Shown: piece by piece, positions 1 through 50,809 of the stretch
Position numbering within the stretch: position 1 is the stretch's first letter
Layout: each line of letters begins with the position of its first letter
Origin: a phage
DNA length: 50,809 nt
Sequence record: NC_136442.1
Strand: one strand, 5' to 3'
Translations under genes and position numbers: made by a program
The notes under the pieces: model-generated
Told to the model about the DNA's origin: nothing
The model's input: only the letters and a program-made list of their open reading frames with translations
Databases searched by the model: none

Positions 1-127
1 CGGCGGTATCACTATCGACTCTATCGCAGAGCTTGAGGATATTGACGGCAAAGGTACGAAAGGTTGCTTGGTTTACGAAAAAGATCCAATGAACATGAGC
101 ATTGAGATTCCAGAAGCGTTTAACATG
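1..127. repeat. terminal duplication, identical to 50683-50809 (circular closure or assembly overlap)
   Basis: Exact 127-nt identity between window start and end, read directly. Confidence 0.95.
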
Positions 128-247
128 CTTCCGGCGCAGCCAAAAGACCTGCATTTCAAGGTTCCTTGCACTTCCAAGTGTACTGGCCTTACGATTTATC
201 GTCCGTTTACGATGGTGCTCATTACCGGCTTGAAAAAAGCTGAGTAA
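1..247 (+). CDS. major capsid protein, C-terminal part (in-frame continuation of 49958..50809 across the junction; stop TAA 245-247)
   Basis: Frame continuity through the duplicated junction; position between head proteins and head-tail connector genes. Confidence 0.7.
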   Translation, partial: GGITIDSIAELEDIDGKGTKGCLVYEKDPMNMSIEIPEAFNMLPAQPKDLHFKVPCTSKCTGLTIYRPFTMVLITGLKKAE

Positions 248-258
248 TTAGATAACAT

Positions 259-287
259 GGGGAGCCTTAAGGGTTCCCCTTTTTTAT
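259..287 (+). terminator. intrinsic terminator after major capsid gene
   Basis: GGGGAGCC-TTAA-GGGTTCCCC hairpin followed by TTTTTTATTT. Confidence 0.7.
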
Positions 288-303
288 TTATGGAGTACAC
301 AAA

Positions 304-570: not shown

Positions 571-616
571 TAATTGGGGCGCTTATGCGCCCTTTGTCAC
601 ATCTGGAGAAAACAAA

Positions 617-2896: not shown

Positions 2897-2901
2897 AACA
2901 A

Positions 2902-2922
2902 GGGGCGTTGCGCCCCTTTTTT
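2902..2922. terminator. bidirectional intrinsic terminator after major tail gene
   Basis: GGGGCGTTGCGCCCC hairpin flanked by A-run upstream and T-run downstream. Confidence 0.8.
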
Positions 2923-2962
2923 CATTCCTGTAAAATCAATCTATCAAATAAATTAATTCCAC

Positions 2963-2981
2963 TTTTAACAAAAAGTGCTAT
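2963..2981 (-). promoter_or_regulatory. 20-nt family motif in reverse orientation (TTTTAACAAAAAGTGCTAT) abutting the RBS of the tail chaperone gene
   Basis: Motif read directly; followed immediately by AAGGAG and ATG 2996. Confidence 0.6.
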
Positions 2982-8836: not shown

Positions 8837-8843
8837 AAAAATA

Positions 8844-8866
8844 CCCGCCTTGCGCGGGTTTTTTTG
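8844..8866 (+). terminator. intrinsic terminator after I
   Basis: ACCCGCC-TTGC-GCGGGT hairpin plus TTTTTTT. Confidence 0.8.
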
Positions 8867-8914
8867 TGCCTTTATAATGTGCAAACCAAGAAACAGCACA
8901 AAAGGTTAAAAGTC

Positions 8915-13563: not shown

Positions 13564-13606
13564 ACTATACACGATCCGACAAGCGGCGTTTAGCAAAAAG
13601 TGCTAC
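13564..13606 (-). promoter_or_regulatory. motif-type promoter cassette (variant GTAGCACTTTTTGCTAAAC, 18-nt spacer, TATAGT) for the lipoprotein gene
   Basis: Motif, spacing and -10-like hexamer read on the minus strand. Confidence 0.55.
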
Positions 13607-15422: not shown

Positions 15423-16079
<657 letters not shown>

Positions 16080-16122
16080 TAAACGGGGCGCTTGCGCCCC
16101 TTTTGTCATAGGAGAAAACAAA

Positions 16123-16584: not shown

Positions 16585-16610
16585 GCCCCGCATATGCGGG
16601 GCATATTTTA
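16585..16610. terminator. bidirectional terminator between ssb and the tail fibre gene
   Basis: GCCCCGC-ATAT-GCGGGGC hairpin flanked by A-run and T-rich tract. Confidence 0.75.
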
Positions 16611-18740
16611 TTTATCACTTAACTTTGAAATTAAATTTCTAATTTCGTTAATTTCTGATTTTAACATTTCTATTTCCTCTTGCTGTTTTTTTATTAATTC
16701 CTCTTGTCTATCTGAGTCATAGATCATCTCATTTATAGCATTTACAAGCAATGCAGTAACGCCGCTATAACTTACACCCAAGTAATCAGAGTCTGATATT
16801 TTGTAAACAGCCTCCGGTAAAACATTTTGCACATCTTGAGCTATTACCCCAGCCTCTTCTGAGTACAAAGAATGTTCATCTTCATCAATATTATTTCTCT
16901 TAAAATAAGTATAACCTTTTATTGATTTTACCTTATCTTTGGCTGATTTGATCTCTTTTAAATTTGCTTTAAGCCTGATGTCAGAAGTGCTAACCCATTG
17001 AACGCATGATGCGTAACCAGCATCGTTAAATGAGTAAATCGCCCCCCTTACATTAAATCGAGTATCACAAGATCCTGAACTATATCTAACAACATCAAGA
17101 CCAGCAACCCAATCTCCTCCCCATCTAACAGCCTTAAAAACGTTTGATGCTGCATCATCTCCTGGCAACTCAACAAGAAGGCCTGCCGCTCGATCCCTCC
17201 AGTCAACAAAGCCACCCCCAGATACTTGACCGCCAATTAGAGCATTGCCTCCGCCAATTCTAGATCCTGAAACTCTAATGCCATTTGCGTTATTATCAAT
17301 AGGCCATATGTTTAAAAGACCGTTAAGATGAAAGTTTTGAGGATCAAATGATGCAACGTTTCTACCATTACAAAAAACCTGCAATACTCCGTCGCCGCCT
17401 TGCTTAAACCCGGTGTCGCTATCACCTATAACTAACGAATTAGACCCAAGTGAATTTATAATGCCTCTACCAATTGTTATTGTATTGTAATTTATGGCGT
17501 TTCCGCTTTCGTCAAATTGATAATAGTTTGTATCTCCACCTTCTCTTGTTACCTGTATTGTTGCTTTAGCTGTACCACCTATAATTTCATTGTAGACCCT
17601 TGAGTATGAAAGCTGCACACCTTCTGCGTTCTTGTTTCTAAGGTAAAGAATGCCTGATGCTTCTCCGTTGTTGTTATCAAGATTTACCCCCAAGAATACA
17701 GGGATATGATTTGTCGCAAGCCCTAAATTGTGCCTTACTCCATCGGGAGTTGTTGCGCCTGTACCGCCAGCGCCAATAGAAAGCGCATATGTAGCGTTAT
17801 CACTATTACTTGCAACTCTCCATTCTCCATTGTTAGCAATCCTCAATTCATAGCTTGCTTGCGGATTAGTAAAGCTGTTGTAATCGCCAGGCGTTGAATG
17901 AGAAGCCGGATCATTGCTAATTACCGCTTGAACCTGCAACACTTTTCTTGCTTCAGCCTTATCAGTAAGATCATTAAGGTTTTGATCCTTATGGAGAATA
18001 TTTTCAGGATTTACTTGTTGCGCCCATTGCATAGCCTCATCTCTTGCAGATTCAGCGGCTGATTTTGCACTTTCAGCATAATTCTTGGCATTGTCAGCCT
18101 CATTTTTAGCATTAATTGCGCCATCTCTAGCCGATTCAGCCTCTGATTTAATGCTTGTAACCTCAACAACTGCAGAGTCCTTTATTTGCTGAGTCTGATC
18201 TTTAATTGATTGAGCCTCGTTTTTTATGGCGTTAGTTTCGCTTACTGCGTCATCTTTGATCTTCTGAGTTTCAGCTAGGGCAGAATCCTTTATCTGTTGA
18301 GTGTCATTTTTTAATTGCTCAGTGGCTGCGCGATCTGTTGCTACTTGTTGCGCAGACTCCTTAACTTGATTCACCAGATCCTTTAAGCCATCCAAATCAA
18401 AATCTTTAAAAAACTCTATTGCTTCTGCAATTTCTGTTTCCTTGCTCTGGTAATAACGCAAAGTTTCCGCTACATCCTGCGCAAGCCCGTCAATCGTTAA
18501 CGAGTCATGAAGCAAGATCAGGTAATTTGTTTGTTGAACTACTTCACCGCCAGTAGTAATGGCGCGAATGCTTGTATCGCTAATCACCTCTGTGATCACG
18601 GCAGCTTGCAAAGGTTGAGTAAGAAAGAAAATAGTTGCACCTGGGCGAATCAATGTTAATTGCTCGCGCCATTTTGTGTCGTAACCAGTAACATAACCTT
18701 GAGCGTCCATCGACGCTTGGCCTTGTCTGTAAATCGCCAT
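16608..18740 (-). CDS. tail fibre protein with C-terminal intramolecular chaperone (peptidase S74-like) domain
   Basis: 710 aa; central coiled-coil repeats and Gly-rich region; C-terminal chaperone-type segment ending ...[15 protein letters not shown]; start MAIYRQG after AGGAGGA RBS. Confidence 0.7.
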
Positions 18741-18757
18741 TTGTAAAATCCTCCTAA

Positions 18758-18778
18758 ATAGCACTTTTTGCTAATGAC
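18758..18778 (+). promoter_or_regulatory. 20-nt family motif (variant ATAGCACTTTTTGCTAATGAC) directly abutting the tail fibre RBS on the opposite strand
   Basis: Motif read directly; lies between the primase terminator and the tail fibre start. Confidence 0.55.
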
Positions 18779-20319: not shown

Positions 20320-20363
20320 ATAGCATTTTTTGTTAAAACAGTTTATTGTAATGAGTCTATTAT
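20320..20363 (+). promoter_or_regulatory. motif-type promoter cassette (ATAGCATTTTTTGTTAAAAC, 18 nt, TATTAT) upstream of helicase
   Basis: Motif and spacing read directly; divergent to the HTH gene. Confidence 0.6.
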
Positions 20364-22393: not shown

Positions 22394-22812
22394 TGGCTAT
22401 AACTGATAAAGGCGATTATCTTGAGTTTTACGAAAGGGATCCAACCGACACGAGAAGGGAAGTTAATCACCAGATAGATAGTTTTCAGTGGTTGACTTAT
22501 GCTCATCCTTATTTGCTGGCGTGGCATACGGTAAACGAGAATGAGAAGTCTAAAGCAACGGCGATGATTGATCAGCAGTCCGGCTTGGTTAAGGGAGTAA
22601 GCGATTTCATCATCCTGATTGGTTTAAACGGAAAATACCCCTTTGCAGCGATTGAGATCAAACGAGTGAATAAATCAGGCAAGGGGAAAGCATCACCAGT
22701 CAGCGATGAACAAAAGGCTTTTTTGCGTCGCGTTCGCAGCTTAGGAGGATTCGCTGCGGTAGCCTACGGATTCAATCAGTTTAAGTTGGCTATTGAATAC
22801 ATGCTTAAATAG
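22393..22812 (+). CDS. VRR-NUC domain nuclease
   Basis: GVSDF...IEIK PD-(D/E)XK-type motif in a roughly 140-aa protein after the helicase. Confidence 0.55.
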   Translation: MAITDKGDYLEFYERDPTDTRREVNHQIDSFQWLTYAHPYLLAWHTVNENEKSKATAMIDQQSGLVKGVSDFIILIGLNGKYPFAAIEIKRVNKSGKGKASPVSDEQKAFLRRVRSLGGFAAVAYGFNQFKLAIEYMLK

Positions 22813-22852
22813 CACTTTTTGTTAAAACTGGCGCGATGGATTGCGCCATAAT
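22809..22852 (+). promoter_or_regulatory. motif-type promoter cassette (motif, hairpin spacer, CATAAT) upstream of dam
   Basis: Consensus motif 22809-22828; inverted repeat GGCGCGATGGATTGCGCC in spacer; hexamer 22847-22852. Confidence 0.6.
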
Positions 22853-23622: not shown

Positions 23623-23880
23623 ATGAAAAAAGAGAGAAGCGTTTATTTAAATGAAACTGGCGAATGGTTGTTATTTCGCGCTATGGTGTGCGATGCACTT
23701 GATAAAAATCCTAACGTGAAAAAGATGATTGATTGCGATCCGTGGGAATTTTCAAGCGCATTAGATATGAGCTTTGAGGAGACAAAAAAACTCCCGCTTG
23801 AAAAATGGCACGAACAAATCAGAAATGACATGCAAGAGTTTGTCGATTCGTGGAATTTTCAGCACGGAATGATCCACTAA
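23623..23880 (+). CDS. hypothetical protein (85 aa)
   Basis: ORF with GGAG RBS; stop overlaps next motif. Confidence 0.55.
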   Translation: MKKERSVYLNETGEWLLFRAMVCDALDKNPNVKKMIDCDPWEFSSALDMSFEETKKLPLEKWHEQIRNDMQEFVDSWNFQHGMIH

Positions 23881-23923
23881 TAGCACTTTTTGTTAAAACG
23901 CCCGACCTAGTGTCGGGCATAAT
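23880..23923 (+). promoter_or_regulatory. motif-type promoter cassette (motif, hairpin GCCCGACCTAGTGTCGGGC, CATAAT)
   Basis: Read directly. Confidence 0.6.
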
Positions 23924-29258: not shown

Positions 29259-29302
29259 ATTTTAACGGCCCAATACTACCCCGTTTTGTCAAAAAGTGCT
29301 AT
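29259..29302 (-). promoter_or_regulatory. motif-type promoter cassette (variant ATAGCACTTTTTGACAAAAC, 18 nt, TAAAAT)
   Basis: Read on minus strand. Confidence 0.6.
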
Positions 29303-29932: not shown

Positions 29933-29976
29933 ATTATGCCAGGTTTTTACACCTGGCTTTTAACAAAAAGTGCTAT
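29933..29976 (-). promoter_or_regulatory. motif-type promoter cassette (motif, hairpin CCAGGTGTAAAAACCTGG, CATAAT)
   Basis: Read on minus strand. Confidence 0.6.
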
Positions 29977-31965: not shown

Positions 31966-32009
31966 AATATACCATTCAGGCGCACATCGTTTTTAACAAA
32001 AAGTGCTAT
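31966..32009 (-). promoter_or_regulatory. motif-type promoter cassette (motif with extra A, TATATT)
   Basis: Read on minus strand. Confidence 0.6.
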
Positions 32010-32471: not shown

Positions 32472-32515
32472 AATGTACAGGAATACGAGGATTGAGTTTT
32501 AACAAAAAGTGCTAT
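32472..32515 (-). promoter_or_regulatory. motif-type promoter cassette (consensus motif, 18 nt, TACATT)
   Basis: Read on minus strand; leader ACACGCATCGACAACGAA. Confidence 0.6.
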
Positions 32516-33469: not shown

Positions 33470-33741
33470 TACTTCTTGATCTCCTCACTGATAAATTTCA
33501 GCACCTGACGCAAGAAAACCTCGTTGTTGATAGTCGCTGGCAATTCTTCTTTCACTTCTTGCGGCAGATAGATATTGCCGTGCCAGGTCAAGCAATCGTA
33601 GTTGATACGATAAGAGCAAAGCCACTCGCAATCGTTATCTGCTTCCCAAATGCAGAGTTGCAGAACATCGCCAAAATCTTCAACAGTCAGATCCAGACCG
33701 TGACGCTTAGCGAAATTGAAAGTGGTTTTGCTGATGTTCAT
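33469..33741 (-). CDS. hypothetical protein (90 aa), first gene of the leftward early block
   Basis: Follows motif cassette; AGGAGA RBS. Confidence 0.6.
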   Translation of the reverse strand: MNISKTTFNFAKRHGLDLTVEDFGDVLQLCIWEADNDCEWLCSYRINYDCLTWHGNIYLPQEVKEELPATINNEVFLRQVLKFISEEIKK

Positions 33742-33775: not shown

Positions 33776-33819
33776 AATGTACCCGATCAGGTGGCCTGAG
33801 TTTTAACAAAAAGTGCTAT
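33776..33819 (-). promoter_or_regulatory. motif-type promoter cassette (consensus motif, 18 nt, TACATT)
   Basis: Read on minus strand; leader ACACACATCGAAACGAAC. Confidence 0.6.
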
Positions 33820-33938: not shown

Positions 33939-34358
33939 TTGGTTGCAGGGGAGATAGTGAAACATTCCCCTCTTGCCTCACTTTTCCGCCTGGCTGTCAG
34001 TGGTTGTTATGTTCCGTTCCCGCCTGTTCTTTTGTTGACCTTCCGCAAAATACGATAACAAAAAATAACAAACAATACCTATATAATACATTGAAAAATA
34101 AGGATTATTTATTTATATGTATCTATATATTCTCTTTTGTTATCTTGGTTATTGTGGTATTTGGTGGGGGTATATAGTTTTTGTGTATCTATATGTGTGT
34201 ATGGGTATGTAAGGGCATATATATCTATATGGCACTTTCCGCGAGAAAACTTCGATAACAATCAATGATAACATTGATTTATAAGGAAAAATAACGCCTA
34301 TATTGTTATTGTGCCACCATATAAAATTGATAAAACACGCGGGAACAAGAAAAAACAG

Positions 34359-34880: not shown

Positions 34881-35137
34881 AAAAGGCGTTAATCGGTGTT
34901 TTGGTGGCAATGACACTCCTGACCGGATGCGAAAAGGCATCAGAATCAACGGTTGTCGTAGGCGTGGAGTCAGATTTCAAAGTCGGCCGCCTGTTCACTG
35001 TTGACGGATGCACAGCATACAGATTCTATGATAACGGTCGCGCGATCTATTACACCAATTGCAAAGGCGCAACGGATAGCACGTACAACAGCGGAAAGAA
35101 CGTAATGCACCAGCAAGTCACAACAGATATTAAATAG
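34877..35137 (+). CDS. lipoprotein (86 aa)
   Basis: Signal MKKALIGVLVAMTLLTGC with lipobox; ATGA overlap with upstream gene. Confidence 0.6.
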   Translation: MKKALIGVLVAMTLLTGCEKASESTVVVGVESDFKVGRLFTVDGCTAYRFYDNGRAIYYTNCKGATDSTYNSGKNVMHQQVTTDIK

Positions 35138-35177
35138 CACTTTTTGTTAAAACGCCAGGCGCAAAGCCTGGCATAAT
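35134..35177 (+). promoter_or_regulatory. motif-type promoter cassette (consensus motif, hairpin GCCAGGCGCAAAGCCTGGC, CATAAT)
   Basis: Read directly; leader AGCCTCATCGAAACGAGA then GAGGAA RBS. Confidence 0.65.
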
Positions 35178-35596: not shown

Positions 35597-35640
35597 ATAG
35601 CACTTTTTGTTAAAACTCAAAAACGACAACCAGGCATAAT
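35597..35640 (+). promoter_or_regulatory. motif-type promoter cassette (consensus motif, 18 nt, CATAAT)
   Basis: Read directly; leader contains hairpin GGGGCGGCACGGCGTCGCCC. Confidence 0.6.
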
Positions 35641-36662: not shown

Positions 36663-36815
36663 ATGGCTACCTGGATTTTGCTGATTCTTATGATTGATGG
36701 CGGCGTTGACCATATCGAAATGAATAGCCAGCAATCTTGCATTGAGGCACGAGAGCAGATCAAGAACAACAACAGGTTTTATGCGTACACTCACACGCTA
36801 TGTATTAAGAAATAG
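36663..36815 (+). CDS. hypothetical small hydrophobic protein (50 aa)
   Basis: GAGGTGAGAG RBS; stop TAG lies inside next motif; below ORF-track cutoff. Confidence 0.45.
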   Translation: MATWILLILMIDGGVDHIEMNSQQSCIEAREQIKNNNRFYAYTHTLCIKK

Positions 36816-36854
36816 CACTTTTTGTTAAAACTCAAATGTGGGGCCAGGTATAAT
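36812..36854 (+). promoter_or_regulatory. motif-type promoter cassette (consensus motif, TATAAT inside hairpin GGCCAGG...GGCC)
   Basis: Read directly. Confidence 0.6.
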
Positions 36855-37334: not shown

Positions 37335-38045
37335 ATGAAAAAATACACTTTCGAACTGTGGGGCAAGAAGTACGAATTTACGACAAGCAAGCCGATTGTT
37401 ATCGTTGACCTAGACGGCACACTATCGGACGGATCGCATCGTTTGCATTTGCTGCCAACTGAAAACTTGCACCTTACGGAATCGTGGCGCGAGTTTAACA
37501 GGGCCGCCGCCGGAGATTCACCTATTAAAAGCACTATCGCGGTTATTAACGGTTTATGGGTGTCGGGATTTGCCATCGTCATCTTGACCGGACGCAGCGA
37601 CGAGGTTCGCTATGAAACCTGCAAATGGTTGAATGAGAACGGCGTGAAGTTTGACGAAATCATCATGCGCCGCCATGAGGACAACCGAAAGGATACGGTT
37701 ATTAAAGAAGAAGCCTTGCGCGCTATTGGCCTGGACAACATTGTTTGCGCCTTTGACGATTCGCCGAACGTGGTTAAGCACTTCCGCAGCTTGGGGATCA
37801 CAACCTATCAGGTCACGGAATACGACAAGCCACACGCTCACATACAATCTCACGGCGTGGAATCAATCAAGATAACGAAGCGCGCCCGATTCGTTGGCAG
37901 CAAAGATAGCCTTGTCAATGCCAGCTTTACCAGAGGAATAGCCTATGACGTTGTTTCTTATCATGACAAGAGTTTTATAGTTCATGATGATTCTGGATGC
38001 GCCTGGTCATTCAATCATAGTGACGGCGATTTTGTTAATGCGTAA
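37335..38045 (+). CDS. HAD-superfamily phosphatase (nucleotidase or polynucleotide 3-phosphatase-like)
   Basis: Motif I VIVDLDGTLSDG (DxDGT) near the N-terminus; ATG at 37335 chosen over TTG at 37320. Confidence 0.55.
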   Translation: MKKYTFELWGKKYEFTTSKPIVIVDLDGTLSDGSHRLHLLPTENLHLTESWREFNRAAAGDSPIKSTIAVINGLWVSGFAIVILTGRSDEVRYETCKWLNENGVKFDEIIMRRHEDNRKDTVIKEEALRAIGLDNIVCAFDDSPNVVKHFRSLGITTYQVTEYDKPHAHIQSHGVESIKITKRARFVGSKDSLVNASFTRGIAYDVVSYHDKSFIVHDDSGCAWSFNHSDGDFVNA

Positions 38046-38088
38046 TAGCACTTTTTGTTAAAACATCTCAACGGGCTTGCGGTATAGT
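38045..38088 (+). promoter_or_regulatory. motif-type promoter cassette (consensus motif, 18 nt, TATAGT within hairpin GGGCTT...AAGCCC)
   Basis: Read directly; leader CATCAACAACAAACGAGGA. Confidence 0.6.
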
Positions 38089-38968: not shown

Positions 38969-39559
38969 ATGAAGCGAGACATTATTATCCTTAATGGGCC
39001 ACCTGGTTGTGGAAAGGACACTATTGCAGCTTACCTAACGGGCCATCGTTACCCAGCGGTTAAGGCGTCATTCAAACAGCCGATGTTCGATATTGCGTTT
39101 TCCATGCTGGGCGTGTACCGATACGATGAATTTATGGACCTGTACAACGACCGAGAACAAAAAGAAAAGCCTCAAGTTATCTTAGGCGGCAAGTCACCTC
39201 GACAATTCATGATCTGGATTAGCGAGGATGTAATGAAGCCAGTTTTTGGGGATCACTATTTCGGGCGTCGAATGGTTGAAGAGATTCACGAGATGTACCG
39301 AGATTTGGCGGTTGTGATCAGTGATGGCGGATTCCCCGAAGAAATCAAGCCGCTGGTTAAGGCGGGGCATGAGGTGCATATTTGCCGATTGCATCGCGAC
39401 GGCTTCACGTTTGCTGGCGATTCGAGAGACTACATTGACCTGAGCGGTTATCACTATCGAATCCATCACTATGATTTCCACTTGCAGGACGGTAAGCCGG
39501 AACTGGCTGTAAACGAGATCGTCAATGCTGTCAAATGGAAGCACACACAGATTAAATAG
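38969..39559 (+). CDS. P-loop nucleotide kinase (dNMP kinase-like)
   Basis: Walker A NGPPGCGKDT near the N-terminus; GGGGAGAATAATC RBS. Confidence 0.6.
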   Translation: MKRDIIILNGPPGCGKDTIAAYLTGHRYPAVKASFKQPMFDIAFSMLGVYRYDEFMDLYNDREQKEKPQVILGGKSPRQFMIWISEDVMKPVFGDHYFGRRMVEEIHEMYRDLAVVISDGGFPEEIKPLVKAGHEVHICRLHRDGFTFAGDSRDYIDLSGYHYRIHHYDFHLQDGKPELAVNEIVNAVKWKHTQIK

Positions 39560-39599
39560 CACGAATTGCTAAACGCGGGGTTATCGGCCCCGCTATAAT
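39556..39599 (+). promoter_or_regulatory. motif-type promoter cassette (variant ATAGCACGAATTGCTAAAC, hairpin CGGGGTTATCGGCCCCG, TATAAT)
   Basis: Read directly. Confidence 0.55.
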
Positions 39600-40558: not shown

Positions 40559-40849
40559 ATGGCAAACAAAACTTACCGCAAACTACTGGTTAACGCTTTT
40601 GAAAATATCGCGCAGTGTAACAAGTGGAACGACTCTAAACACTCGCCAATCACAATGAAGCGCGCCGGATTCAAAAATGCTCGTTCATGGGCGCGAGCTT
40701 TCGCAGCTTGCTATATGCCGGATGGTGGACTAGGAGCGATGAACGAGTTTTTGATCAACATGATAGAGGAAGCTGCGCGAGATGATCGACCGCTGACACA
40801 GCGAGATTTTGATGATTTCGCGCGCGATGAGCTTTACTATCTGAGCTAA
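40559..40849 (+). CDS. hypothetical protein (96 aa)
   Basis: ORF ends at TAA adjacent to next motif. Confidence 0.55.
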   Translation: MANKTYRKLLVNAFENIAQCNKWNDSKHSPITMKRAGFKNARSWARAFAACYMPDGGLGAMNEFLINMIEEAARDDRPLTQRDFDDFARDELYYLS

Positions 40850-40892
40850 TAGCACTTTTTGTTAAAACTTCCGCAAGGGCATTTGGTAAAGT
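40849..40892 (+). promoter_or_regulatory. motif-type promoter cassette (consensus motif, 18 nt, TAAAGT within hairpin AGGGCA...TGCCCT)
   Basis: Read directly. Confidence 0.6.
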
Positions 40893-43502: not shown

Positions 43503-45070
43503 TGATCATATGGGAAGATTTGACGGCGGCGCAAAAGCGAGCCATTAAAGAAATCAGCGAGCATTCATTCGAAAAGATGATCAGAATCTGGTTCCAATTG
43601 TTGCAGGGGCAAAAATTCCAGAGCAACTGGCATTTTAGCTTATTGTGCAGTGAGGTAGAGAAGATCATCAATGGAGAGTCGCAGAATGTGATTTTCAACA
43701 TTACGCCAGGTAGCGGTAAGACTGAGATTTTCTCGATCCACATGTCACCATACGCGTCATTGAAAAGCCGGAAGGTGAGAAACCTTAACCTTTCGTTTAG
43801 TGATGGCCTTGTCCAGCAAAACAGCAACCGGATAAAGGAGATTATTGGTTCTCCTGAGTGGCAAGAGCTATGGCCTGGAAAACTGGCAAAGGCGAGCGCT
43901 AAAGATCTGATAGTCACCGAAGGCGGCAAGGTTAAATTGCAAGTTAACTCACGTTCTATTGGCGGCCAGGTAACAGGTTTGCGTGGCGGCTATATGGACG
44001 ATGGTTTTACTGGTATGCTGGTTCTTGACGATCCAGACAAGCCGGATGATATGCTTTCTAAGGTAAAGCGCGAGGCTATTCACATGCGGTTAAAAAACAC
44101 AGTGCGATCGCGTCGAATGAAAGACACCACGCCAATTGTTATGGTGCAACAGCGACTACACGTTAATGATTCCACCTGGTTCATGCTTAATGGCGGGATG
44201 GGTGGTATTGAGTTTAAAGTCGTGAGCATTCCGGCGCTGGTTACGAAAGAATACCGCGAAACGCTTCCTGATTGGTTGAAGCCTGAATTTGATCGTGATG
44301 TGCTGTCAAGTAAGCCAGTGATGATAGATGGCGTCGCTCATTATTCATTTTGGCCTGCGAAGGAAAGCGCTGAGGAGTTGCTTGCATTGCGCAATGCAGA
44401 TCCTTACACGTTCTCCAGCCAATACCAACAGCAACCAATCGCGCTTGGCGGGAACGTGTTTAAAACAGAGTGGTTCCAGTATTACGGCAGCGGCGAAAAG
44501 TGCGCACTACCAAAACCGGATCGCTTTGAATACACATTTATTACTGGAGATACCGCGCAGAAGGCCGGAGAGCTTAACGACTATTCGGTTTTTTGTTATT
44601 GGGGGATGTATAAGAATCGCGTTTACTTCATTGATGGCATTCGCGGAAAGTGGGAAGCGCCGGATCTTGAATTAAATTTTATTGCCTTCGTTAACCAGTG
44701 CTGGAAGCGCAATAAGGAGTGTGGCAGCTTGCGACGTATCCACATTGAGGATAAGGCCAGCGGCACGGGTTTGATTCAGGGGGCCAAAAAGAAGATCCCG
44801 ATTGATATAAATCCCGTTCAGCGAAGCAATGACAAGGTGACGCGAGCAATGGACGCCGCGCCAGTAATGAGGGCCGGACGTGTGGCGCTGCCAGAAAATC
44901 ACCCAATGCTGCCTGAGATACTGGCAGAGGTTGCAGCATTCACTTTTGATGATTCTCATCCCCATGATGATATTGTCGATAATATAGTTGATGCTGTTAA
45001 CGTCGAAATGAACTTGGCAGATGATCCGGTGGCAAGGATGAAAAAGCTGGCTGGTCTACGCAATAAATAG
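43502..45070 (+). CDS. terL: terminase large subunit
   Basis: ATPase-type motifs (PGSGKT Walker A-like, VLDDPD Walker B-like) and C-terminal acidic nuclease-type region; 522 aa. Confidence 0.8.
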   Translation: MIIWEDLTAAQKRAIKEISEHSFEKMIRIWFQLLQGQKFQSNWHFSLLCSEVEKIINGESQNVIFNITPGSGKTEIFSIHMSPYASLKSRKVRNLNLSFSDGLVQQNSNRIKEIIGSPEWQELWPGKLAKASAKDLIVTEGGKVKLQVNSRSIGGQVTGLRGGYMDDGFTGMLVLDDPDKPDDMLSKVKREAIHMRLKNTVRSRRMKDTTPIVMVQQRLHVNDSTWFMLNGGMGGIEFKVVSIPALVTKEYRETLPDWLKPEFDRDVLSSKPVMIDGVAHYSFWPAKESAEELLALRNADPYTFSSQYQQQPIALGGNVFKTEWFQYYGSGEKCALPKPDRFEYTFITGDTAQKAGELNDYSVFCYWGMYKNRVYFIDGIRGKWEAPDLELNFIAFVNQCWKRNKECGSLRRIHIEDKASGTGLIQGAKKKIPIDINPVQRSNDKVTRAMDAAPVMRAGRVALPENHPMLPEILAEVAAFTFDDSHPHDDIVDNIVDAVNVEMNLADDPVARMKKLAGLRNK

Positions 45071-45096
45071 CACTAATTGCTAAAAAGTTATATAAT
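45067..45096 (+). promoter_or_regulatory. motif variant (ATAGCACTAATTGCTAAAAAG) with TATAAT upstream of portal
   Basis: Read directly; hexamer lies 3 nt upstream of a terminator hairpin. Confidence 0.5.
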
Positions 45097-45098
45097 CA

Positions 45099-45124
45099 AG
45101 GCTGGATTTTTCCAGCCTTTTTTA
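45099..45124 (+). terminator. intrinsic terminator between terL and portal
   Basis: AGGCTGGA-TTTT-TCCAGCCT hairpin plus TTTTTT. Confidence 0.75.
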
Positions 45125-45140
45125 TTATGGAGATTTGACG

Positions 45141-48323: not shown

Positions 48324-48803
48324 ATGGCTAAAATTGGAGCAAGTTATTTTGACACTATGGCGATCGCACTACCTGGCATGGTTGCCGACACTTCTAAATA
48401 CAACATTGACGGCGCTTGCGTCGTTAGTGAAGGTGGGGAAATTCTTGTTGGTACTGCCGTGCAGGTTGTCGCAGTGCAAGCGGTTGAAGGTCATAAACTT
48501 ATTAAGCGCATGGAAACAGGAAAATATCCTTACGGTGTGGCAATTCGTTCTCACTGGCAAACTGTTAACTCTCAAGGACAGATGGTTTATGAAGAAGGAA
48601 GCGCAATCAACGTAATGACATCTGGCAGAGTTTGGATTCGTTCAAGGTCCAGCGCAGCACCAGTCTTCGGCACTGCCGTTAAACTTGATGTTGATGGTCA
48701 TGAAAAATCAGACGGTTCAATCACTACTAACTGGACATACGCTGGCGGATTTGTCAAATATAAAGATATTAATCTTGTAGAAGTTCAGTTGCAGCAACTG
48801 TAA
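48324..48803 (+). CDS. head structural protein (paralogue of 48863 gene N-terminal domain)
   Basis: Shares YNIDGACV, PYG(V/I)A(I/F)RS, GRVW, AGGFVK segments with the next ORF; AAGGAG RBS. Confidence 0.55.
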   Translation: MAKIGASYFDTMAIALPGMVADTSKYNIDGACVVSEGGEILVGTAVQVVAVQAVEGHKLIKRMETGKYPYGVAIRSHWQTVNSQGQMVYEEGSAINVMTSGRVWIRSRSSAAPVFGTAVKLDVDGHEKSDGSITTNWTYAGGFVKYKDINLVEVQLQQL

Positions 48804-48862
48804 TTAGAGTTTAATATTGGGACCATCCAAAAGGATGGTCCTTTTTTTATGGAGAAATTATT

Positions 48863-49876
48863 ATGGCTTATGAAAATTTAATGATGCACTATGCATGTCC
48901 TGGCAATCTCTCTGATACTTCAACCTATAACATTGATGGCGCTTGTGTTGCTCAAGGTGATATTGAGTTTGGATCAGCGGTTCGGGTTGTCGGAATAGTG
49001 GATGGAATGAGGGTTGTGACGGCGCTTTCTGATGGTGAAACTCCTTACGGCATCGCTTTTCGTTCCCAATATGAGCACCTGAGCGGTAAAATTCTCGACG
49101 GAGAGGTGTGTAACGTCGTTTCTCAAGGTCGGGTGTGGGCGCTTACTTCTCTTAGTGAAGCCCCGAAATCATTCTCAAAACTAAGAATCGGTGTTGGAGG
49201 AGTAGTAACTGGCGTAGATGATTATGTTGGTTGGACCTTTGCTGGTGGCTTTGTTAAGCATGAAGACGGTCACATTATTGAGGTTCAGGTGAAGCAAAAT
49301 GCTCTAATCGTTCCACCCCCTCCGCCTCCTGTGGTGCTGGTAGAGTCTGCAACAATTAACACTGACAAGGAGAGTCCGCAGCCAAACAATGCTCCTGTAA
49401 AATGCAGTATCACAGTAGAGCCTGGCAACGCCACAGATAAAACTGGTGTTTGGTCTGTTGATGCTGTAAACATTGCGACTATTGATGCCGATACAGGTAT
49501 TCTAACTCCTGTTGGTAGTGATGCATTCGGTAGTGTAAACGTAAATTGGACTGCTAACGATGGAAGCAAGACTAAGGCCACGATTGTTTATCAATTCGAA
49601 AAAGCTGTTGTTAGCGTCGCTAGTGCAACCGTAAGCCTTGAGAAAAATTCTGCAATTGTTGGTGAAGCCGTTCAGGCGAGCGTTGTCGTTGCTCCAGAGG
49701 GTGCTACAAATAAATCCGGTTCTTGGTCTTTGTCAAGTGGTGATTTTGCATCTGTAGATCCTGGTACTGGACTAGTAACTACTATCGCCGCTGGCGAGGT
49801 TGATGTTATCTGGACCGCTGCTGATGGTTCTGGCGTTAAAGGTCAGCAAAGACTAACCATCACCGATCCTGAATAA
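48863..49876 (+). CDS. head structural protein with proline linker and two C-terminal Ig-like (Big_2-like) repeats
   Basis: N-terminal domain paralogous to the previous ORF; PPPPPP linker; two similar roughly 80-aa beta-rich repeats. Confidence 0.55.
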   Translation: MAYENLMMHYACPGNLSDTSTYNIDGACVAQGDIEFGSAVRVVGIVDGMRVVTALSDGETPYGIAFRSQYEHLSGKILDGEVCNVVSQGRVWALTSLSEAPKSFSKLRIGVGGVVTGVDDYVGWTFAGGFVKHEDGHIIEVQVKQNALIVPPPPPPVVLVESATINTDKESPQPNNAPVKCSITVEPGNATDKTGVWSVDAVNIATIDADTGILTPVGSDAFGSVNVNWTANDGSKTKATIVYQFEKAVVSVASATVSLEKNSAIVGEAVQASVVVAPEGATNKSGSWSLSSGDFASVDPGTGLVTTIAAGEVDVIWTAADGSGVKGQQRLTITDPE

Positions 49877-49888
49877 CATAAAAACGCT

Positions 49889-49916
49889 TTGACGCTTTAA
49901 CAAAAAGTGCTATCAT
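49889..49916 (+). promoter_or_regulatory. sigma70-type promoter TTGACG-16-TATCAT upstream of major capsid gene
   Basis: Read directly; spacer is formed by the family motif in reverse orientation. Confidence 0.5.
49895..49913 (-). promoter_or_regulatory. 20-nt family motif, reverse orientation (CTTTAACAAAAAGTGCTAT)
   Basis: Read directly. Confidence 0.6.
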
Positions 49917-49919
49917 CTA

Positions 49920-49945
49920 GGCCGTTACATTTAACGGCCTTTTAT
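49920..49945 (+). terminator. terminator-like hairpin immediately upstream of the capsid RBS
   Basis: GGCCGTTACATTTAACGGCC plus TTTTAT. Confidence 0.55.
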
Positions 49946-49957
49946 GGAGGAAACAAA

Positions 49958-50809
49958 ATGGCTAAAAAATATGATGAATTAGATGCTACTATTGTAGCAA
50001 ATCATTTGCAGATTCAGGGTGTTAAGTCCGACGCTTCTGATATGGGTATTTGGACCGCTCAAGAGCTACACAAGATCCGCTCTAACGCATACGAGAAAGA
50101 GTATCCGGCAGGTTCCGCGCTTCGCGTATTCCCTGTAACAAACGAGCTTTCTGATACTGACAAGACTTTCGAATATCAGACTTTTGATAAGGTTGGCTAC
50201 GCGAAAATTATCGCCGACTACACCGATGATCTGCCGACTGTGGACGCGTTGATGACTTCTGAGTTTGGCAAAGTGTTCCGCCTGGGTAACGCTTATCTGA
50301 TCTCCATTGATGAGATTAAAGCAGGTCAGCGAACTGGCAAGAGCCTGTCAACTCGCAAGGCTAACGCTGCGCAAAATGCACATGATCAGTTGATTAACTT
50401 CCTGGTGTTCAAGGGTTCCAAGCCTCACAAGATCGTTTCCGTTTTCGATCATCCTAACCTTACGAAAATTGTTTCTAAAGGCTGGATGAGCAATGACGGC
50501 AATACCAAGTTCCCGCAGGTAGCAAGCGATGAACTGGAGGCTGCAATCGAAACGATCGAGGAAGTGACCAAAGGCCAGCACCGCGCGACCAACATCCTGA
50601 TCCCGCCGTCCATGCGTAAAGTCCTAACGGTTCGAATGGAAAATACCACTGAAAGTTATCTTGAATACTTTCAGAAGCAAAACGGCGGTATCACTATCGA
50701 CTCTATCGCAGAGCTTGAGGATATTGACGGCAAAGGTACGAAAGGTTGCTTGGTTTACGAAAAAGATCCAATGAACATGAGCATTGAGATTCCAGAAGCG
50801 TTTAACATG
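49958..50809 (+). CDS. major capsid protein, N-terminal 284 codons (continues at 1..247)
   Basis: GGAGG RBS; ORF runs to the window end and continues in frame through the duplicated junction. Confidence 0.7.
   Translation, partial: MAKKYDELDATIVANHLQIQGVKSDASDMGIWTAQELHKIRSNAYEKEYPAGSALRVFPVTNELSDTDKTFEYQTFDKVGYAKIIADYTDDLPTVDALMTSEFGKVFRLGNAYLISIDEIKAGQRTGKSLSTRKANAAQNAHDQLINFLVFKGSKPHKIVSVFDHPNLTKIVSKGWMSNDGNTKFPQVASDELEAAIETIEEVTKGQHRATNILIPPSMRKVLTVRMENTTESYLEYFQKQNGGITIDSIAELEDIDGKGTKGCLVYEKDPMNMSIEIPEAFNM
50683..50809. repeat. terminal duplication, identical to 1-127
   Basis: Exact identity read directly. Confidence 0.95.

What the first reader, a model, noticed from the sequence alone, without database searches (positions are those of the whole stretch)
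49889..49957. Promoters whose predicted start sites fall inside terminator hairpins (capsid and portal genes)
Upstream of the capsid gene, TTGACG-16-TATCAT (49889-49916) predicts initiation near 49923, inside the 5' arm of the terminator-like hairpin 49920-49939 plus T-run. Upstream of the portal gene, TATAAT at 45091-45096 is followed 3 nt later by hairpin 45099-45118 plus T6. Transcripts arriving from upstream would terminate, whereas transcripts initiated here lack the full stem and should read through. This is a compact insulator arrangement. Similarly, the terminators at 2902-2922 and 8844-8866 contain TTGCGC in their loops, positioned 17 nt upstream of TAAAAT (2931-2936) and TATAAT (8873-8878).
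Basis: partly seen in the sequence, partly recalled or inferred. Interest (0 to 1): 0.5.

Follow-up and report, generated by a model that had tools for sequence, protein, structure and literature searches.

The report
Promoters fused to one-way terminators
In this T1-like phage and its whole family, the head genes are preceded by a host-type promoter placed right against a terminator hairpin, so RNA arriving from upstream should stop there while RNA started locally lacks half the hairpin and should carry on; this is a compact, conserved variant of known promoter/terminator cassettes, but nobody has measured it.

Summary
The window is a complete T1-like (Drexlerviridae) genome. All four sites are as described. 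The "-10, then 0-4 nt, then hairpin" layout occurs at four head-module junctions, not two: portal, gene 48863, capsid, and gene 304 just after the capsid gene.

All four are present in T1. Three are conserved across the 80 related loci; the gene-48863 unit occurs only in some clades. The -10 keeps A-11 and T-7, three units keep TTG at 16-17 nt, and the capsid stem covaries. Control hairpins hp576 and hp3629 lack this. The two "-35 in the terminator loop" sites are also conserved.

The capsid promoter's "spacer" is an inverted copy of the published 21-nt Drexlerviridae repeat of unknown function. That repeat turns out to be the upstream element (-50 to -33) of an extended -10 promoter family.

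The insulator interpretation fits: a start at the canonical distance removes 2-6 nt of the 5' arm, and folding energy falls from about -15 to about -2 or -3 kcal/mol. It is untested, because no start-site or 3'-end mapping exists. The U-tract is missing in some clades.

Composite promoter/terminator units (T4-type PeSLs, ribosomal operon concatenation) and starting inside a hairpin (T4 gene e) are known. This is a new variant, of moderate interest.

The parts
49873..49885 (+). A-rich tract (ATAACATAAAAAC) upstream of the capsid -35. It overlaps the stop codon of gene 48863-49876 and may act as an UP-like element.
   Evidence: cATAAcAyAAAAAc is conserved upstream of the -35 in the T1/TLS-like clades, although the upstream gene's 3' end differs. 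The UP-like function is inferred.
49889..49894 (+). Capsid promoter -35 (TTGACG).
   Evidence: TTG-type -35 in 33/36 distinct related sequences, always with a 16-nt spacer.
49896..49913 (-). Inverted copy of the Drexlerviridae direct repeat (ATAGCACTTTTTGTTAAA on the minus strand). It forms the spacer, the TGn and the first half of the -10 of the capsid promoter.
   Evidence: Present at this position in all clades, including the 52-54% clade. Listed as DR7 (negative strand) in TLS Supplementary Table S1.
49911..49916 (+). Capsid promoter -10 (TATCAT), preceded by TG at 49908-49909 (extended -10). Predicted +1 at 49923-49924.
   Evidence: TATCAT, TATTAT or TATATT in 36/36 relatives that have the hairpin. 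The +1 is inferred from the canonical -10 to +1 distance.
49920..49945 (+). Hairpin GGCCGTTA-CATT-TAACGGCC (49920-39) plus TTTTAT. Proposed terminator for transcripts coming from gene 48863-49876.
   Evidence: About -14.5 kcal/mol in incoming RNA, against -2 to -4 from the predicted +1. 6 of 9 pairs show compensatory changes. Annotated as terminator T35 in TLS. U-tract length varies among clades.
45067..45084 (+). Forward DR (ATAGCACTAATTGCTAAA) at the end of terL; the terL stop TAG is at 45068-70. Its TAGCAC lies 17 nt upstream of the portal -10.
   Evidence: Present in the window-like clades, absent in the T1 and TLS clades.
45091..45096 (+). Portal promoter -10 (TATAAT). Predicted +1 at 45103-45104.
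   Evidence: TATAAT, CATAAT, TAAAAT or TACAAT 0-4 nt before the hairpin core in 50/50 distinct relatives. The -35 is not conserved, except TTGAAA-17 in the distant clade.
45098..45128 (+). Hairpin AAGGCTGG-ATTTTT-CCAGCCTT (45098-45119) plus TTTTATTAT. Proposed terL terminator.
   Evidence: -16.8 kcal/mol in incoming RNA, against 0 to -3.7 from +1. Its orthologue is annotated as a rho-independent terminator in T1 (10545-73) and in TLS (T30).
48789..48817 (+). Promoter TTGCAG-17-TAATAT inside and just after the end of gene 48324-48803. Predicted +1 at 48824-48825.
   Evidence: TTGCAT/TTGCAG/TTGATG/TTGCAC-17-TAATAT/TAACAT, 1-2 nt before the hairpin, in the window, T1, L064, L032 and L031 clades..
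48819..48850 (+). Hairpin GGGACCATCC-AAAA-GGATGGTCCT plus T7. Proposed terminator of the portal-to-48803 unit.
   Evidence: -18.1 kcal/mol in incoming RNA. T1 orthologue annotated as a terminator at 14235-67.
230..258 (+). Promoter TTGAAA-17-TAACAT overlapping the last codons and stop (245-247) of the capsid gene. Predicted +1 at 264-265.
   Evidence: TTG-type -35 in 33/35 relatives and a 17-nt spacer in 34/35. The TTG falls in different codons in different clades.
259..291 (+). Hairpin GGGGAGCC-TTA-AGGGTTCCCC (the scanner's 9-pair stem; folds a GGGGAGCCU/GGGUUCCCC stem with loop UAA) plus T-rich tail. Proposed capsid-gene terminator.
   Evidence: -16.1 kcal/mol in incoming RNA, against about -4 from +1. 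6-9 T in the next 9 nt in all 35 relatives. Annotated as a terminator in T1 (16107-37) and in TLS (T36A).
2900..2936 (+). Class-B unit: major-tail-gene terminator hairpin 2900-2918. TTGCGC (2908-13) in its loop and 3' arm serves as -35, the T-run lies in the spacer, and TAAAAT (2931-36) is the -10.
   Evidence: TTGCGC/TTGCGT/TTGTGC, 16-17 nt, then TAAAAT/TACAAT/TAGAAT/TAATAT/CATAAT is conserved in all clades.
8843..8878 (+). Class-B unit: hairpin 8843-8859 with TTGCGC (8850-55) as -35, a 17-nt T-rich spacer, and TATAAT (8873-78).
   Evidence: Conserved across about 70 loci upstream of the J-like tail gene.

Best explanation
The four head-module junctions (before the portal gene, gene 48863, the capsid gene and gene 304) are composite units. 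In each, a host sigma-70 promoter is fused to the intrinsic terminator of the upstream gene. The -10 hexamer lies 0-4 nt before the GC-rich 5' arm of the hairpin.

Proposed mechanism:
- RNA polymerase arriving from upstream transcribes the whole hairpin and U-tract and terminates.
- Polymerase that binds the local promoter starts about 7 nt after the -10, which is inside the 5' arm. Its RNA lacks 2-6 nt of that arm. Any residual apical stem is weak and no longer abuts the U-tract, so this polymerase continues into the gene.
- The U-tract then becomes the U-rich leader just before the Shine-Dalgarno sequence.

Each head gene block would thus be expressed at a level set by its own promoter. The capsid gene would be a monocistronic unit bracketed by two such junctions.

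The same logic runs through the genome in two other registers:
- the -35 inside the terminator loop (hp2900, hp8843);
- the hairpin inside the DR-type early promoters.

Shown here: sequence, geometry, conservation, covariation and folding energies. Inferred: start positions, termination efficiency, and that sigma-70 holoenzyme uses these promoters during infection.
For: - Elements are at the stated coordinates.
- Family-wide conservation of the -10 (A-11 and T-7 kept), of the TTG -35 at a fixed 16- or 17-nt spacer, and of a 0-5 nt distance between -10 and hairpin. This holds at the portal, capsid and gene-304 junctions; the gene-48863 unit occurs in a subset of clades. It is absent at control hairpins hp576 and hp3629.
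- At hp259 the -35 TTG moves between codons while keeping its register to the hairpin.
- Within the window alone, enrichment has P of about 1e-4 to 1.5e-3.
- The capsid hairpin has compensatory changes in 6 of 9 pairs, so the full hairpin forms in RNA. Only incoming transcripts can contain it.
- Mean folding energy falls from -12.8 to -15.9 kcal/mol (incoming RNA) to -2.1 to -3.4 from the predicted +1.
- In the distant clade the capsid junction has the canonical order: terminator, then the same promoter, with no downstream hairpin.
- Orthologous hairpins are annotated as rho-independent terminators in T1 and TLS. T1 itself has all four units.
- Of 53 DR promoters in three genomes, 33 carry an embedded hairpin and none has a complete hairpin downstream of its predicted +1.
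- Functional precedents exist: PeSL cassettes with demonstrated promoter and terminator activity, terminator-promoter overlaps in ribosomal operons, and T4 late promoters that start inside an inhibitory hairpin.
Against: - No start-site or 3'-end mapping exists for any T1-like phage.
- The U-tract is weak or missing after the capsid hairpin in several clades (0-4 T in 9 nt in 13 of 36 sequences; L048 has AAAAAGGAG). It is missing after the portal hairpin in the distant clade (14 of 50). The hairpin is kept there, so it must have another or additional role.
- The portal promoter has no recognisable -35 in this phage or in T1.
- For gene 48863, a start at 48823-24 would leave a 5-6-bp stem of -6 to -9 kcal/mol.
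- The published TLS annotation, which used strict criteria, called none of these promoters.
- Placing the promoter upstream of the terminator exposes it to occlusion by incoming polymerases, so 'insulation' is not complete.
Confidence: 0.6

Rival explanations
1. There are no functional promoters at these junctions. The hairpins are partial terminators or RNA-stability and processing elements. They would protect the 3' ends of upstream mRNAs, or serve as 5' stabilisers after RNase E cuts the AU-rich segment just upstream. Downstream genes would be expressed by read-through. The -10-like hexamers would be AU-rich RNA features or stop-codon-rich spacers.
For: - Hairpins persist without a U-tract in some clades.
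- A/T-rich tracts before terminators are common: 8 of 12 late hairpins have some -10-like hexamer, against 10-21% background.
- T1 and TLS annotators called terminators but no promoters here.
- The portal unit lacks a -35.
- Hairpins such as hp576 and hp3629 clearly exist without promoters.
Against: - TTG is conserved at exactly 16 or 17 nt from the hexamer in three units (33/36, 33/35, 11/24), against 0/15 and 0/21 at the controls.
- TGn and an upstream A-tract are present at the capsid promoter.
- The -35 shifts codon position at hp259.
- The hexamers vary only in ways that keep A-11 and T-7.
- Strong terminators directly before the most abundant protein's gene would otherwise starve it of transcripts.
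Confidence: 0.2
2. A promoter-proximal attenuator under antitermination control, as in lambda pR'-tR' with Q. Transcripts from these promoters would contain the hairpin and stop after about 30 nt unless a phage factor makes polymerase terminator-resistant. That factor would load at the promoter, for example on the DR between -35 and -10 of the capsid promoter. This would give late timing.
For: - The DR lies between -35 and -10 of the capsid promoter in every clade. From my own knowledge, this is where the Q-binding element lies in lambda pR'.
- Many terminators lie in series through the late region.
- The mechanism of late timing in T1-like phages is unknown.
Against: - With the -10 only 0-4 nt from the hairpin, a sigma-70 start cannot lie upstream of the stem, so the local transcript cannot contain this terminator.
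- The other three units have no DR in the spacer.
- I did not search for a Q-like protein, and none is annotated.
Confidence: 0.07
3. Chance or compositional coincidence: AT-rich intergenic DNA next to GC-rich hairpins happens to resemble promoters.
For: Consensus scans find as many promoter-like sites in shuffled sequence as in the real sequence for most of the window.
Against: The position-specific enrichment, the conservation across 52-99% capsid identity with control hairpins lacking it, and the presence of the units in T1 and TLS.
Confidence: 0.03

Closest known systems
PeSL (promoter-early stem-loop) cassettes of T4-type phages RB49, phi1, PST and nt-1 (Arbiol et al. 2010, PMC2839356; Comeau et al. 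2014, PMC4122927)
   Same: Both are short intergenic composite units bounded by an upstream stop codon and a downstream SD/ATG. Both combine a sigma-70-type promoter with a stem-loop that terminates incoming transcription. PeSL promoter and terminator activities were shown experimentally. The early DR-hairpin-(-10) units here match the PeSL layout, with the stem-loop between the upstream element and the -10 or overlapping the -10. Like PeSLs, they are repeated next to small ORFan genes.
   Different: There is no sequence relationship, and the phage family is different. In the four head-gene units the stem-loop lies downstream of the -10, across the start site. This position is not among those described for PeSLs. 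These units are unique sequences next to conserved core genes, not repeated recombination cassettes.
T4 genes e, soc, 49 and I-TevI: late promoters located in the DNA that encodes the 5' strand of an RNA structure (Uzan and Miller 2010 review, PMC3014915)
   Same: The principle is identical. Long transcripts from upstream contain the complete hairpin and are affected by it. Transcripts from the embedded promoter lack the 5' strand and escape.
   Different: In T4 the hairpin sequesters the SD or AUG and blocks translation, and the promoter is a gp55-dependent late promoter. Here the SD lies 6-12 nt downstream of the hairpin and is not sequestered. The hairpin plus U-tract looks like a transcription terminator, and the promoter is sigma-70 type.
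[quoted passage not shown] 2019, PMC6735719)
   Same: The terminator of one unit physically overlaps the promoter of the next. The overlap is conserved and has regulatory consequences, with upstream polymerase load reducing downstream initiation ('promoter exclusion').
   Different: This is a cellular rather than a phage context. I could not retrieve the exact register of -10, hairpin and start site in those cases. A start inside the 5' arm is not described in the text I read.
T1 'transcriptons' (Roberts, Martin and Kropinski 2004, as summarised in the TLS paper PMC11447400)
   Same: Same phage family and same hairpins. [quoted passage not shown]
   Different: I could not read the original paper. 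The T1 RefSeq record has no promoter features. The 2024 TLS re-analysis found only three sigma-70 promoters, none of them at these junctions, and could not confirm transcriptons. The abutting -10/hairpin register is not described in any text I could read.
Drexlerviridae 21-nt direct repeat aaATAGCACnnnTTGnTAAAA (TLS paper, PMC11447400)
   Same: 49896-49913 (inverted) and 45067-45084 (forward) are copies of it. TLS DR7 is the orthologue of the capsid copy.
   Different: The paper leaves its function open, suggesting a stoperator, an enhancer site or an UP element. Here 45 of 63 copies in three genomes have a TAnnnT hexamer exactly 22 nt after TTGnTA, with G at -14 and a conserved CATC at the predicted +1. 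The DR therefore behaves as the upstream element of an extended -10 promoter family.

Membership tests
Intrinsic (Rho-independent) terminator | GC-rich stem-loop of about 5-10 bp with a short loop | tested here: met
   All four hairpins have 8-10 bp and fold at -14.5 to -18.1 kcal/mol in incoming RNA.
Intrinsic (Rho-independent) terminator | U-tract immediately 3' of the stem | tested here: inconclusive
   In the window: T6-T7 at hp45098, hp48819 and hp259, but only TTTTAT at hp49920. Across relatives the U-tract is always present at hp259, absent in the distant clade at the portal junction, and variable (0-8 T in 9 nt) at the capsid junction.
Intrinsic (Rho-independent) terminator | Measured termination of transcription | not testable with these tools
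   No Term-seq or in vitro data were found. Orthologues are annotated as terminators by prediction only.
Sigma-70 promoter | -10 hexamer with A at position 2 and T at position 6, conserved in relatives | tested here: met
   50/50, 24/26, 36/36 and 35/35 distinct related sequences at the four junctions.
Sigma-70 promoter | -35 hexamer (TTGnnn) 16-18 nt upstream, or a TGn extended -10 | tested here: met
   Met for the capsid unit (TTGACG-16 plus TGn), gene 304 (TTGAAA-17) and gene 48863 (TTGCAG-17). Not met for the portal unit in this phage, which has TAGCAC and no TG. It is met there only in the distant clade (TTGAAA-17).
Sigma-70 promoter | Mapped transcription start or reporter activity | not testable with these tools
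   No data were found. The +1 positions are predicted from the canonical 7-nt distance.
PeSL-type composite promoter-terminator cassette | Sigma-70-like promoter and stem-loop together in one short intergenic unit between a stop codon and the SD/ATG | tested here: met
PeSL-type composite promoter-terminator cassette | Stem-loop positioned between -35 and -10 or overlapping the -10 | tested here: not met
   In the four head units the stem-loop starts 0-4 nt after the -10. The feature is met by the DR-type early units (33 of 53) and approximately by hp2900 and hp8843.
PeSL-type composite promoter-terminator cassette | Repeated, sequence-conserved cassette flanking ORFans and acting as a recombination substrate | tested here: not met
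   The four head units differ in sequence and flank core genes. Only the DR units are repeated (20 copies). Recombination was not tested.
T4 gene-e-type start-inside-hairpin control | [quoted passage not shown] | tested here: inconclusive
   Met by prediction: +1 falls 2-6 nt into the GC core. The start was not measured.
T4 gene-e-type start-inside-hairpin control | The structure sequesters the SD or start codon | tested here: not met
   The SD begins 6-12 nt downstream of the hairpin and is unpaired in the folds.
Lambda Q / pR'-tR' type antitermination unit | The terminator is fully contained in the transcript from the regulated promoter | tested here: not met
   The -10-to-hairpin distance of 0-4 nt places +1 inside the stem.
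Lambda Q / pR'-tR' type antitermination unit | Q-like antiterminator gene and a promoter-proximal sigma-dependent pause element | not tested
   I did not search the proteins. No such annotation appears in the vB_EcoS-95, T1 or TLS records.
Drexlerviridae 21-nt direct repeat | Match to aaATAGCACnnnTTGnTAAAA | tested here: met
   49896-49913 (minus strand, 0 mismatches) and 45067-45084 (plus strand, 0 mismatches).
Drexlerviridae 21-nt direct repeat | Oriented in the direction of transcription, upstream of a start codon (as stated for TLS) | tested here: not met
   The capsid copy is inverted relative to the capsid gene in the window, T1 and TLS. The portal copy is forward.

The most novel reading that the evidence does not exclude
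Drexlerviridae use a family-wide grammar of 'origin-selective' terminators. Every stable intergenic hairpin is placed in register with a promoter (before, inside or just after it), so that it acts only on incoming polymerases.

The 21-nt DR would be the binding site of one still-unidentified factor, phage-encoded or host. That factor would work as an upstream activator at about 15 early promoters, with the site centred near -41. It would work as an operator inside the spacer of the capsid promoter and in the 5'-UTRs of late tail and terminase genes. It would also drive an antisense promoter facing the tail promoter. One protein would then set the early-to-late switch in a phage family that has no known sigma factor, RNA polymerase or late activator.
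Probability: 0.2. Interest if true: 0.7.

Novelty: new variant of a known kind. Interest (0 to 1): 0.5.

Why it matters
T1 is one of the seven classical T phages, and Drexlerviridae are among the coliphages most often isolated. Yet their transcription programme is essentially unmapped.

- **Annotation puzzle.** Annotators see strong terminators directly in front of essential, highly expressed genes and find almost no promoters. One paper doubts that such a gene is transcribed at all. The 2024 TLS paper found three promoters genome-wide.
- **What this reading supplies.** It gives late promoters for four head-gene units and two tail units. It explains why the terminators do not silence the genes behind them.
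- **Open question.** It turns the open question about the 21-nt repeat into a concrete, testable promoter model: DR at -50 to -33, G at -14, the -10 hexamer 22 nt after TTGnTA, and CATC at +1.
- **Engineering.** A promoter whose -10 abuts a terminator is a roughly 60-nt insulating part. It would reset transcription between genes, which is useful for compact synthetic operons.

Tried and rejected
- **Generic scans.** Overall promoter-like counts did not exceed shuffles, and the capsid hairpin was not listed as a terminator, so these scans could not decide the question. I moved to junction-by-junction comparison.
- **First crude scan of all terminator-like hairpins in the 81 loci.** It dropped the capsid hairpin, because fixed hairpin boundaries and a T-count threshold made it noisy.
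- **First automated junction analysis.** The MFE hairpins absorbed the -10 into A-U pairing with the U-tract and hid the portal -10. I redid it with GC-closed perfect-stem cores.
- **RNAalifold on the portal and hp259 hairpins.** MAFFT misaligned stems of different lengths, so the compensatory counts there are unreliable. Only the capsid alignment is used as covariation evidence. For the others I rely on the lists of distinct, fully paired stems.
- **Literature for start-site or 3'-end data in T1-like phages.** Nothing found.
- **A search for the repeat sequence itself.** It returned only unrelated papers.
- **The original T1 genome paper.** Not held, so I cannot exclude that it already describes promoters abutting terminators.
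- **Hairpin as a 5' stabiliser of the local transcript.** Rejected, because +1 falls inside the stem.
- **Hairpin as a palindromic protein operator.** Rejected, because the four hairpins in one genome are unrelated in sequence and the capsid stem covaries.
- **Hairpin as an SD-sequestering structure.** Rejected, because the SD is outside the hairpin.
- **DR as a canonical UP element.** Rejected, because its T- and A-tracts are about 8 nt out of the UP register (my own reasoning from the positions).
- **TTGnTA of the DR as a normal -35.** Rejected, because a 22-nt spacer is outside the sigma-70 range.
Full report
**What the window is.** The window is a complete, circularly permuted genome of a T1-like siphophage (Drexlerviridae). 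It is 99.8% identical to Escherichia phage NorthRox and 97-99% identical to vB_EcoS-95, mar001J1 and swan01 (annotation of vB_EcoS-95). Its first and last 127 nt are identical. The capsid gene therefore runs 49958-50682 and continues at 1-247.

**Checking the observation.**
- Capsid: TTGACG 49889-94, 16 nt, TATCAT 49911-16 preceded by TG. The hairpin GGCCGTTA/TAACGGCC lies at 49920-39, followed by TTTTAT, GGAGG and the ATG at 49958.
- Portal: TATAAT 45091-96, hairpin 45098-45119, T-run, GGAG, and the ATG at 45141.
- Tail sites: TTGCGC in the loop and 3' arm of the hairpins at 2900-18 and 8843-59 lies 17 nt before TAAAAT (2931-36) and TATAAT (8873-78).

- TTGCAG-17-TAATAT (48789-48817) lies 1 nt before the strong hairpin at 48819-42.
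- TTGAAA-17-TAACAT (230-258) lies directly against the hairpin at 259-279. This hairpin follows the capsid stop codon (245-247).

**Is it more than chance?** Within the window, the full pattern is TTG, 16-18 nt, a -10-like hexamer with A2 and T6, ending 0-4 nt before the GC core. It occurs at 3 of 12 late-strand hairpins. The background rate is 0.7% of all positions, or 1.4% of positions preceded by AT-rich sequence, giving P of about 1e-4 to 1.5e-3.

The stronger test is comparative. I fetched 80 Drexlerviridae loci around the capsid gene, with capsid identity from 52 to 99%, including T1 and TLS. I anchored each junction on the downstream start codon. Counts below are among distinct sequences that have the hairpin.

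| Junction | -10-like hexamer 0-5 nt before the GC core | -35 and spacer |
|---|---|---|
| portal | 50/50 (TATAAT, CATAAT, TAAAAT, TACAAT) | not conserved, except TTGAAA-17 in the distant clade |
| capsid | 36/36 | TTG in 33/36, spacer 16 nt in all |
| gene 304 | 35/35 | TTG in 33/35, spacer 17 nt in 34/35 |
| gene 48863 | 24/26 | TTG in 11/24 |
| control hp576 | 15/56, at scattered distances | no TTG |
| control hp3629 | 21/43, at scattered distances | no TTG |

At hp259 the -35 TTG lies in `ggc TTG aaa` in the window clade. In clades whose capsid protein ends earlier it lies in `ctT Gtt`. The promoter keeps its register to the hairpin, not to the protein.

T1 itself has all four units. The two "-35 in the loop" units are also conserved in every clade examined.

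**The hairpins.** They are 8-10 bp and fold at -14.5 to -18.1 kcal/mol in RNA that includes them fully. The capsid hairpin has compensatory double changes at 6 of 9 pairs. The other stems differ between clades while remaining paired, although the automatic alignments for them are poor.

Pairing is therefore under selection, so the complete hairpin must form in some RNA. Given where the -10 lies, that can only be RNA coming from upstream. The T1 and TLS records and tables annotate the orthologous hairpins as rho-independent terminators. In TLS this includes T35, directly before the capsid gene.

**How it most likely works.** Sigma-70 holoenzyme normally starts about 7 nt after the last base of the -10; this is established knowledge, not measured here. 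That places +1 at 45103-04, 48824-25, 49923-24 and 264-265, which is 2-6 nt into the GC core of the 5' arm in every relative.

RNAs starting there fold at 0 to about -6 kcal/mol. The family means are -2.1 to -3.4, against -12.8 to -15.9 for incoming RNA. Whatever apical stem remains is separated from the U-tract by the unpaired remainder of the 3' arm. I infer, from the established requirement that the stem abut the U-tract, that this should abolish intrinsic termination.

Incoming polymerases would therefore terminate, while locally initiated polymerases would continue. The U-tract would become a U-rich leader immediately before the SD; the string TTTTTATGGAG recurs at these junctions. The capsid gene would be a monocistronic unit bracketed by two such junctions.

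In the most distant clade the capsid junction has the ordinary order. A GGGGCTTCGGCCCC+T5 terminator comes first, then the same promoter, with no hairpin after it. This is what one expects if the hairpin is the upstream gene's terminator and can sit on either side of the promoter.

**What argues for caution.**
- Nothing has been measured. I found no start-site or 3'-end mapping for any T1-like phage.
- The U-tract after the capsid hairpin is weak or absent in several clades (AAAAAGGAG in L048). The portal hairpin of the distant clade is followed by AAATCACAC. The hairpins are retained in both cases. Termination is therefore not their only role everywhere. Protection of upstream 3' ends or RNA processing are the obvious alternatives.
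- The portal promoter has no real -35 in this phage or in T1.
- A promoter upstream of its neighbour's terminator is exposed to occlusion by incoming polymerases, so the units are not perfect insulators. In the Salmonella tufB-secE overlap, such load reduces downstream initiation.

**The repeat inside the capsid promoter.** The 18 nt between the capsid -35 and -10 (49896-49913) are an inverted copy of a motif present 20 times in the window, against 0.65 expected. It is the 21-nt direct repeat aaATAGCACnnnTTGnTAAAA reported for TLS, T1, Rtp and Rogue1. The TLS authors leave its function open and list it as a question for the field.

In the window, T1 and TLS together there are 63 copies.
- In 45 of them the best TAnnnT hexamer lies exactly 22 nt after TTGnTA; in 51 it lies at 21-23 nt.
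- Information peaks fall at G(-14), T(-12), A(-11) and T(-7).
- A conserved CATC(G/A)A sits where +1 is expected.

The repeat is therefore the upstream element, at about -50 to -33, of an extended -10 promoter family that serves the early and middle genes. The TLS analysis searched spacers of 15-19 nt and found only three promoters.

Read backwards, the repeat ends in GTGCTAT. At the capsid promoter this supplies TGn and the first half of the -10. This inverted copy is present in all clades, including the distant one, and it is TLS DR7. Whether a protein binds the repeat is unknown.

**A genome-wide rule.** Of 53 repeat-type promoters in the three genomes, 33 carry a hairpin of at most -7 kcal/mol inside the promoter. 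In 31 it overlaps the -10, with the hexamer often in the loop, as at 36838-62, 38073-94 and 40875-98. In 2 it lies between the repeat and the -10. None has a complete hairpin downstream of its own predicted start.

Three registers of one idea thus coexist:
- class A: hairpin inside the promoter (early units);
- class B: -35 in the hairpin loop (hp2900, hp8843);
- class C: -10 abutting the hairpin (four head units).

In each register, only incoming transcripts contain the whole terminator.

**Comparison with what is known.**
- Composite promoter/terminator cassettes are established in T4-type phages. In PeSLs the stem-loop is most often between -35 and -10 or overlapping the -10, and promoter and terminator activities were demonstrated.
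- Conserved terminator-promoter overlaps link ribosomal operons in enterobacteria.
- Starting transcription inside a hairpin, so that the local RNA lacks the 5' strand, is the classical T4 gene e / soc / 49 / I-TevI mechanism. There it relieves translational repression.
- T1's late region was described in 2004 as 'transcriptons' flanked by terminators. I could not read that paper.

The class-C register, and its use to make a terminator selective for the origin of the transcript, is not described in any text I could read on T1-like phages. One annotation paper is openly puzzled by a terminator in front of a gene.

I therefore rate this as a new variant of a known kind. The principle is not new, and the members are not homologous to PeSLs.

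**Verdict.**
- Observation: confirmed and extended.
- Interpretation: partly supported. The geometry, conservation and energetics fit, but the function is unmeasured and the U-tract is not universal.
- Confidence in the one-way-terminator model: about 0.6.
- Interest: 0.5. It is not a new principle. It does resolve a standing annotation puzzle in a classical phage family, and it makes the published open question about the 21-nt repeat directly testable.

Noticed in passing
window 13589-13606, 20320-20337, 22809-22826, 23880-23897, 29285-29302, 29959-29976, 31992-32009, 32498-32515, 33802-33819, 35134-35151, 35597-35614, 36812-36829, 38045-38062, 39556-39573, 40849-40866; also L161 (T1) and L162 (TLS): The published 21-nt repeat of unknown function is followed 21-22 nt after TTGnTA (21 nt at 13589 and 36812, 22 nt at the rest) by a TAnnnT hexamer, with G at -14. 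A conserved CATC(G/A)A lies at the predicted start. It looks like the upstream element (-50 to -33) of an extended -10 promoter family that serves the early and middle genes. Across the window, T1 and TLS, 45 of 63 copies have the hexamer at exactly 22 nt.
   Followed up: yes
window 2931-2981 (minus strand): The inverted repeat at 2964-2981 lies in the 5'-UTR of gene 2996. On the minus strand it has a TAnnnT hexamer 22 nt away: TAGATT at 2943-2938 here, and TAGCAT, TAAGAT, TAGAGT or TAGGAT in the other clades I checked. This would be an antisense promoter starting near 2931, face to face with the sense tail promoter (-10 at 2931-36). It would produce an RNA of about 35 nt ending at the bidirectional hairpin 2918-2900. 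It could act by promoter competition.
   Followed up: partly
window 8893-8911; T1 (L161) 25021 and 8362; TLS (L162) 24908: Repeat-like sequences (ACAGCACAAAAGGTTAAAA; ATAGCAC... in other clades) lie within the 5'-UTR of late genes, directly against or overlapping the Shine-Dalgarno sequence. The genes are the J-like tail gene and, in T1, the small terminase gene. In these cases the motif would be transcribed, which hints at a roadblock or an RNA-level role.
   Followed up: partly
window 18758-18775: A repeat copy (ATAGCACTTTTTGCTAAT on the plus strand) lies inverted immediately before the SD of the minus-strand tail-fibre gene (16608-18764). This is the same arrangement as at gene 2996, but there is no -10-like hexamer at 22 nt on the plus strand. 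Its role is unexplained.
   Followed up: no
window 1-127 and 50683-50809: There is an exact 127-nt terminal duplication. The window is a whole circularly permuted genome opened inside the capsid gene. The gene is 49958-50682 plus 1-247 (972 nt, 323 aa).
   Followed up: yes
window 45120-45132, 48843-48854, 49940-49950, 280-295: The terminator U-tract runs straight into the ribosome-binding site; the string TTTT(T)(T)ATGGAG recurs. In locally initiated transcripts the U-tract would therefore be a U-rich leader just upstream of the SD, possibly a translational enhancer.
   Followed up: no
window 576-593: The hairpin between genes 304 and 617 has no conserved -10 before it. In this phage it has a poor U-tract (TTGTCACA), whereas T1 and TLS have T6-7 at the same place. 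It served as an internal control, but its own function here (partial terminator or RNA stabiliser) is open.
   Followed up: partly
window 34100-34260: There is a TG/TA-rich, low-complexity stretch with a long imperfect hairpin (34177-34216). It lies in the divergent intergenic region between the leftward (ending at 33741) and rightward (from 34380) early gene blocks. It could be an origin or other cis site.
   Followed up: no
window 16024-16100: A near-consensus TTGACA-18-TAAAAT (16024-16053) lies inside gene 15426-16079. ATCACA-17-AATAAT ends at 16080, 4 nt before hairpin 16085-16100. This may be another promoter-then-hairpin unit in the recombination module. I did not check it in relatives.
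   Followed up: no
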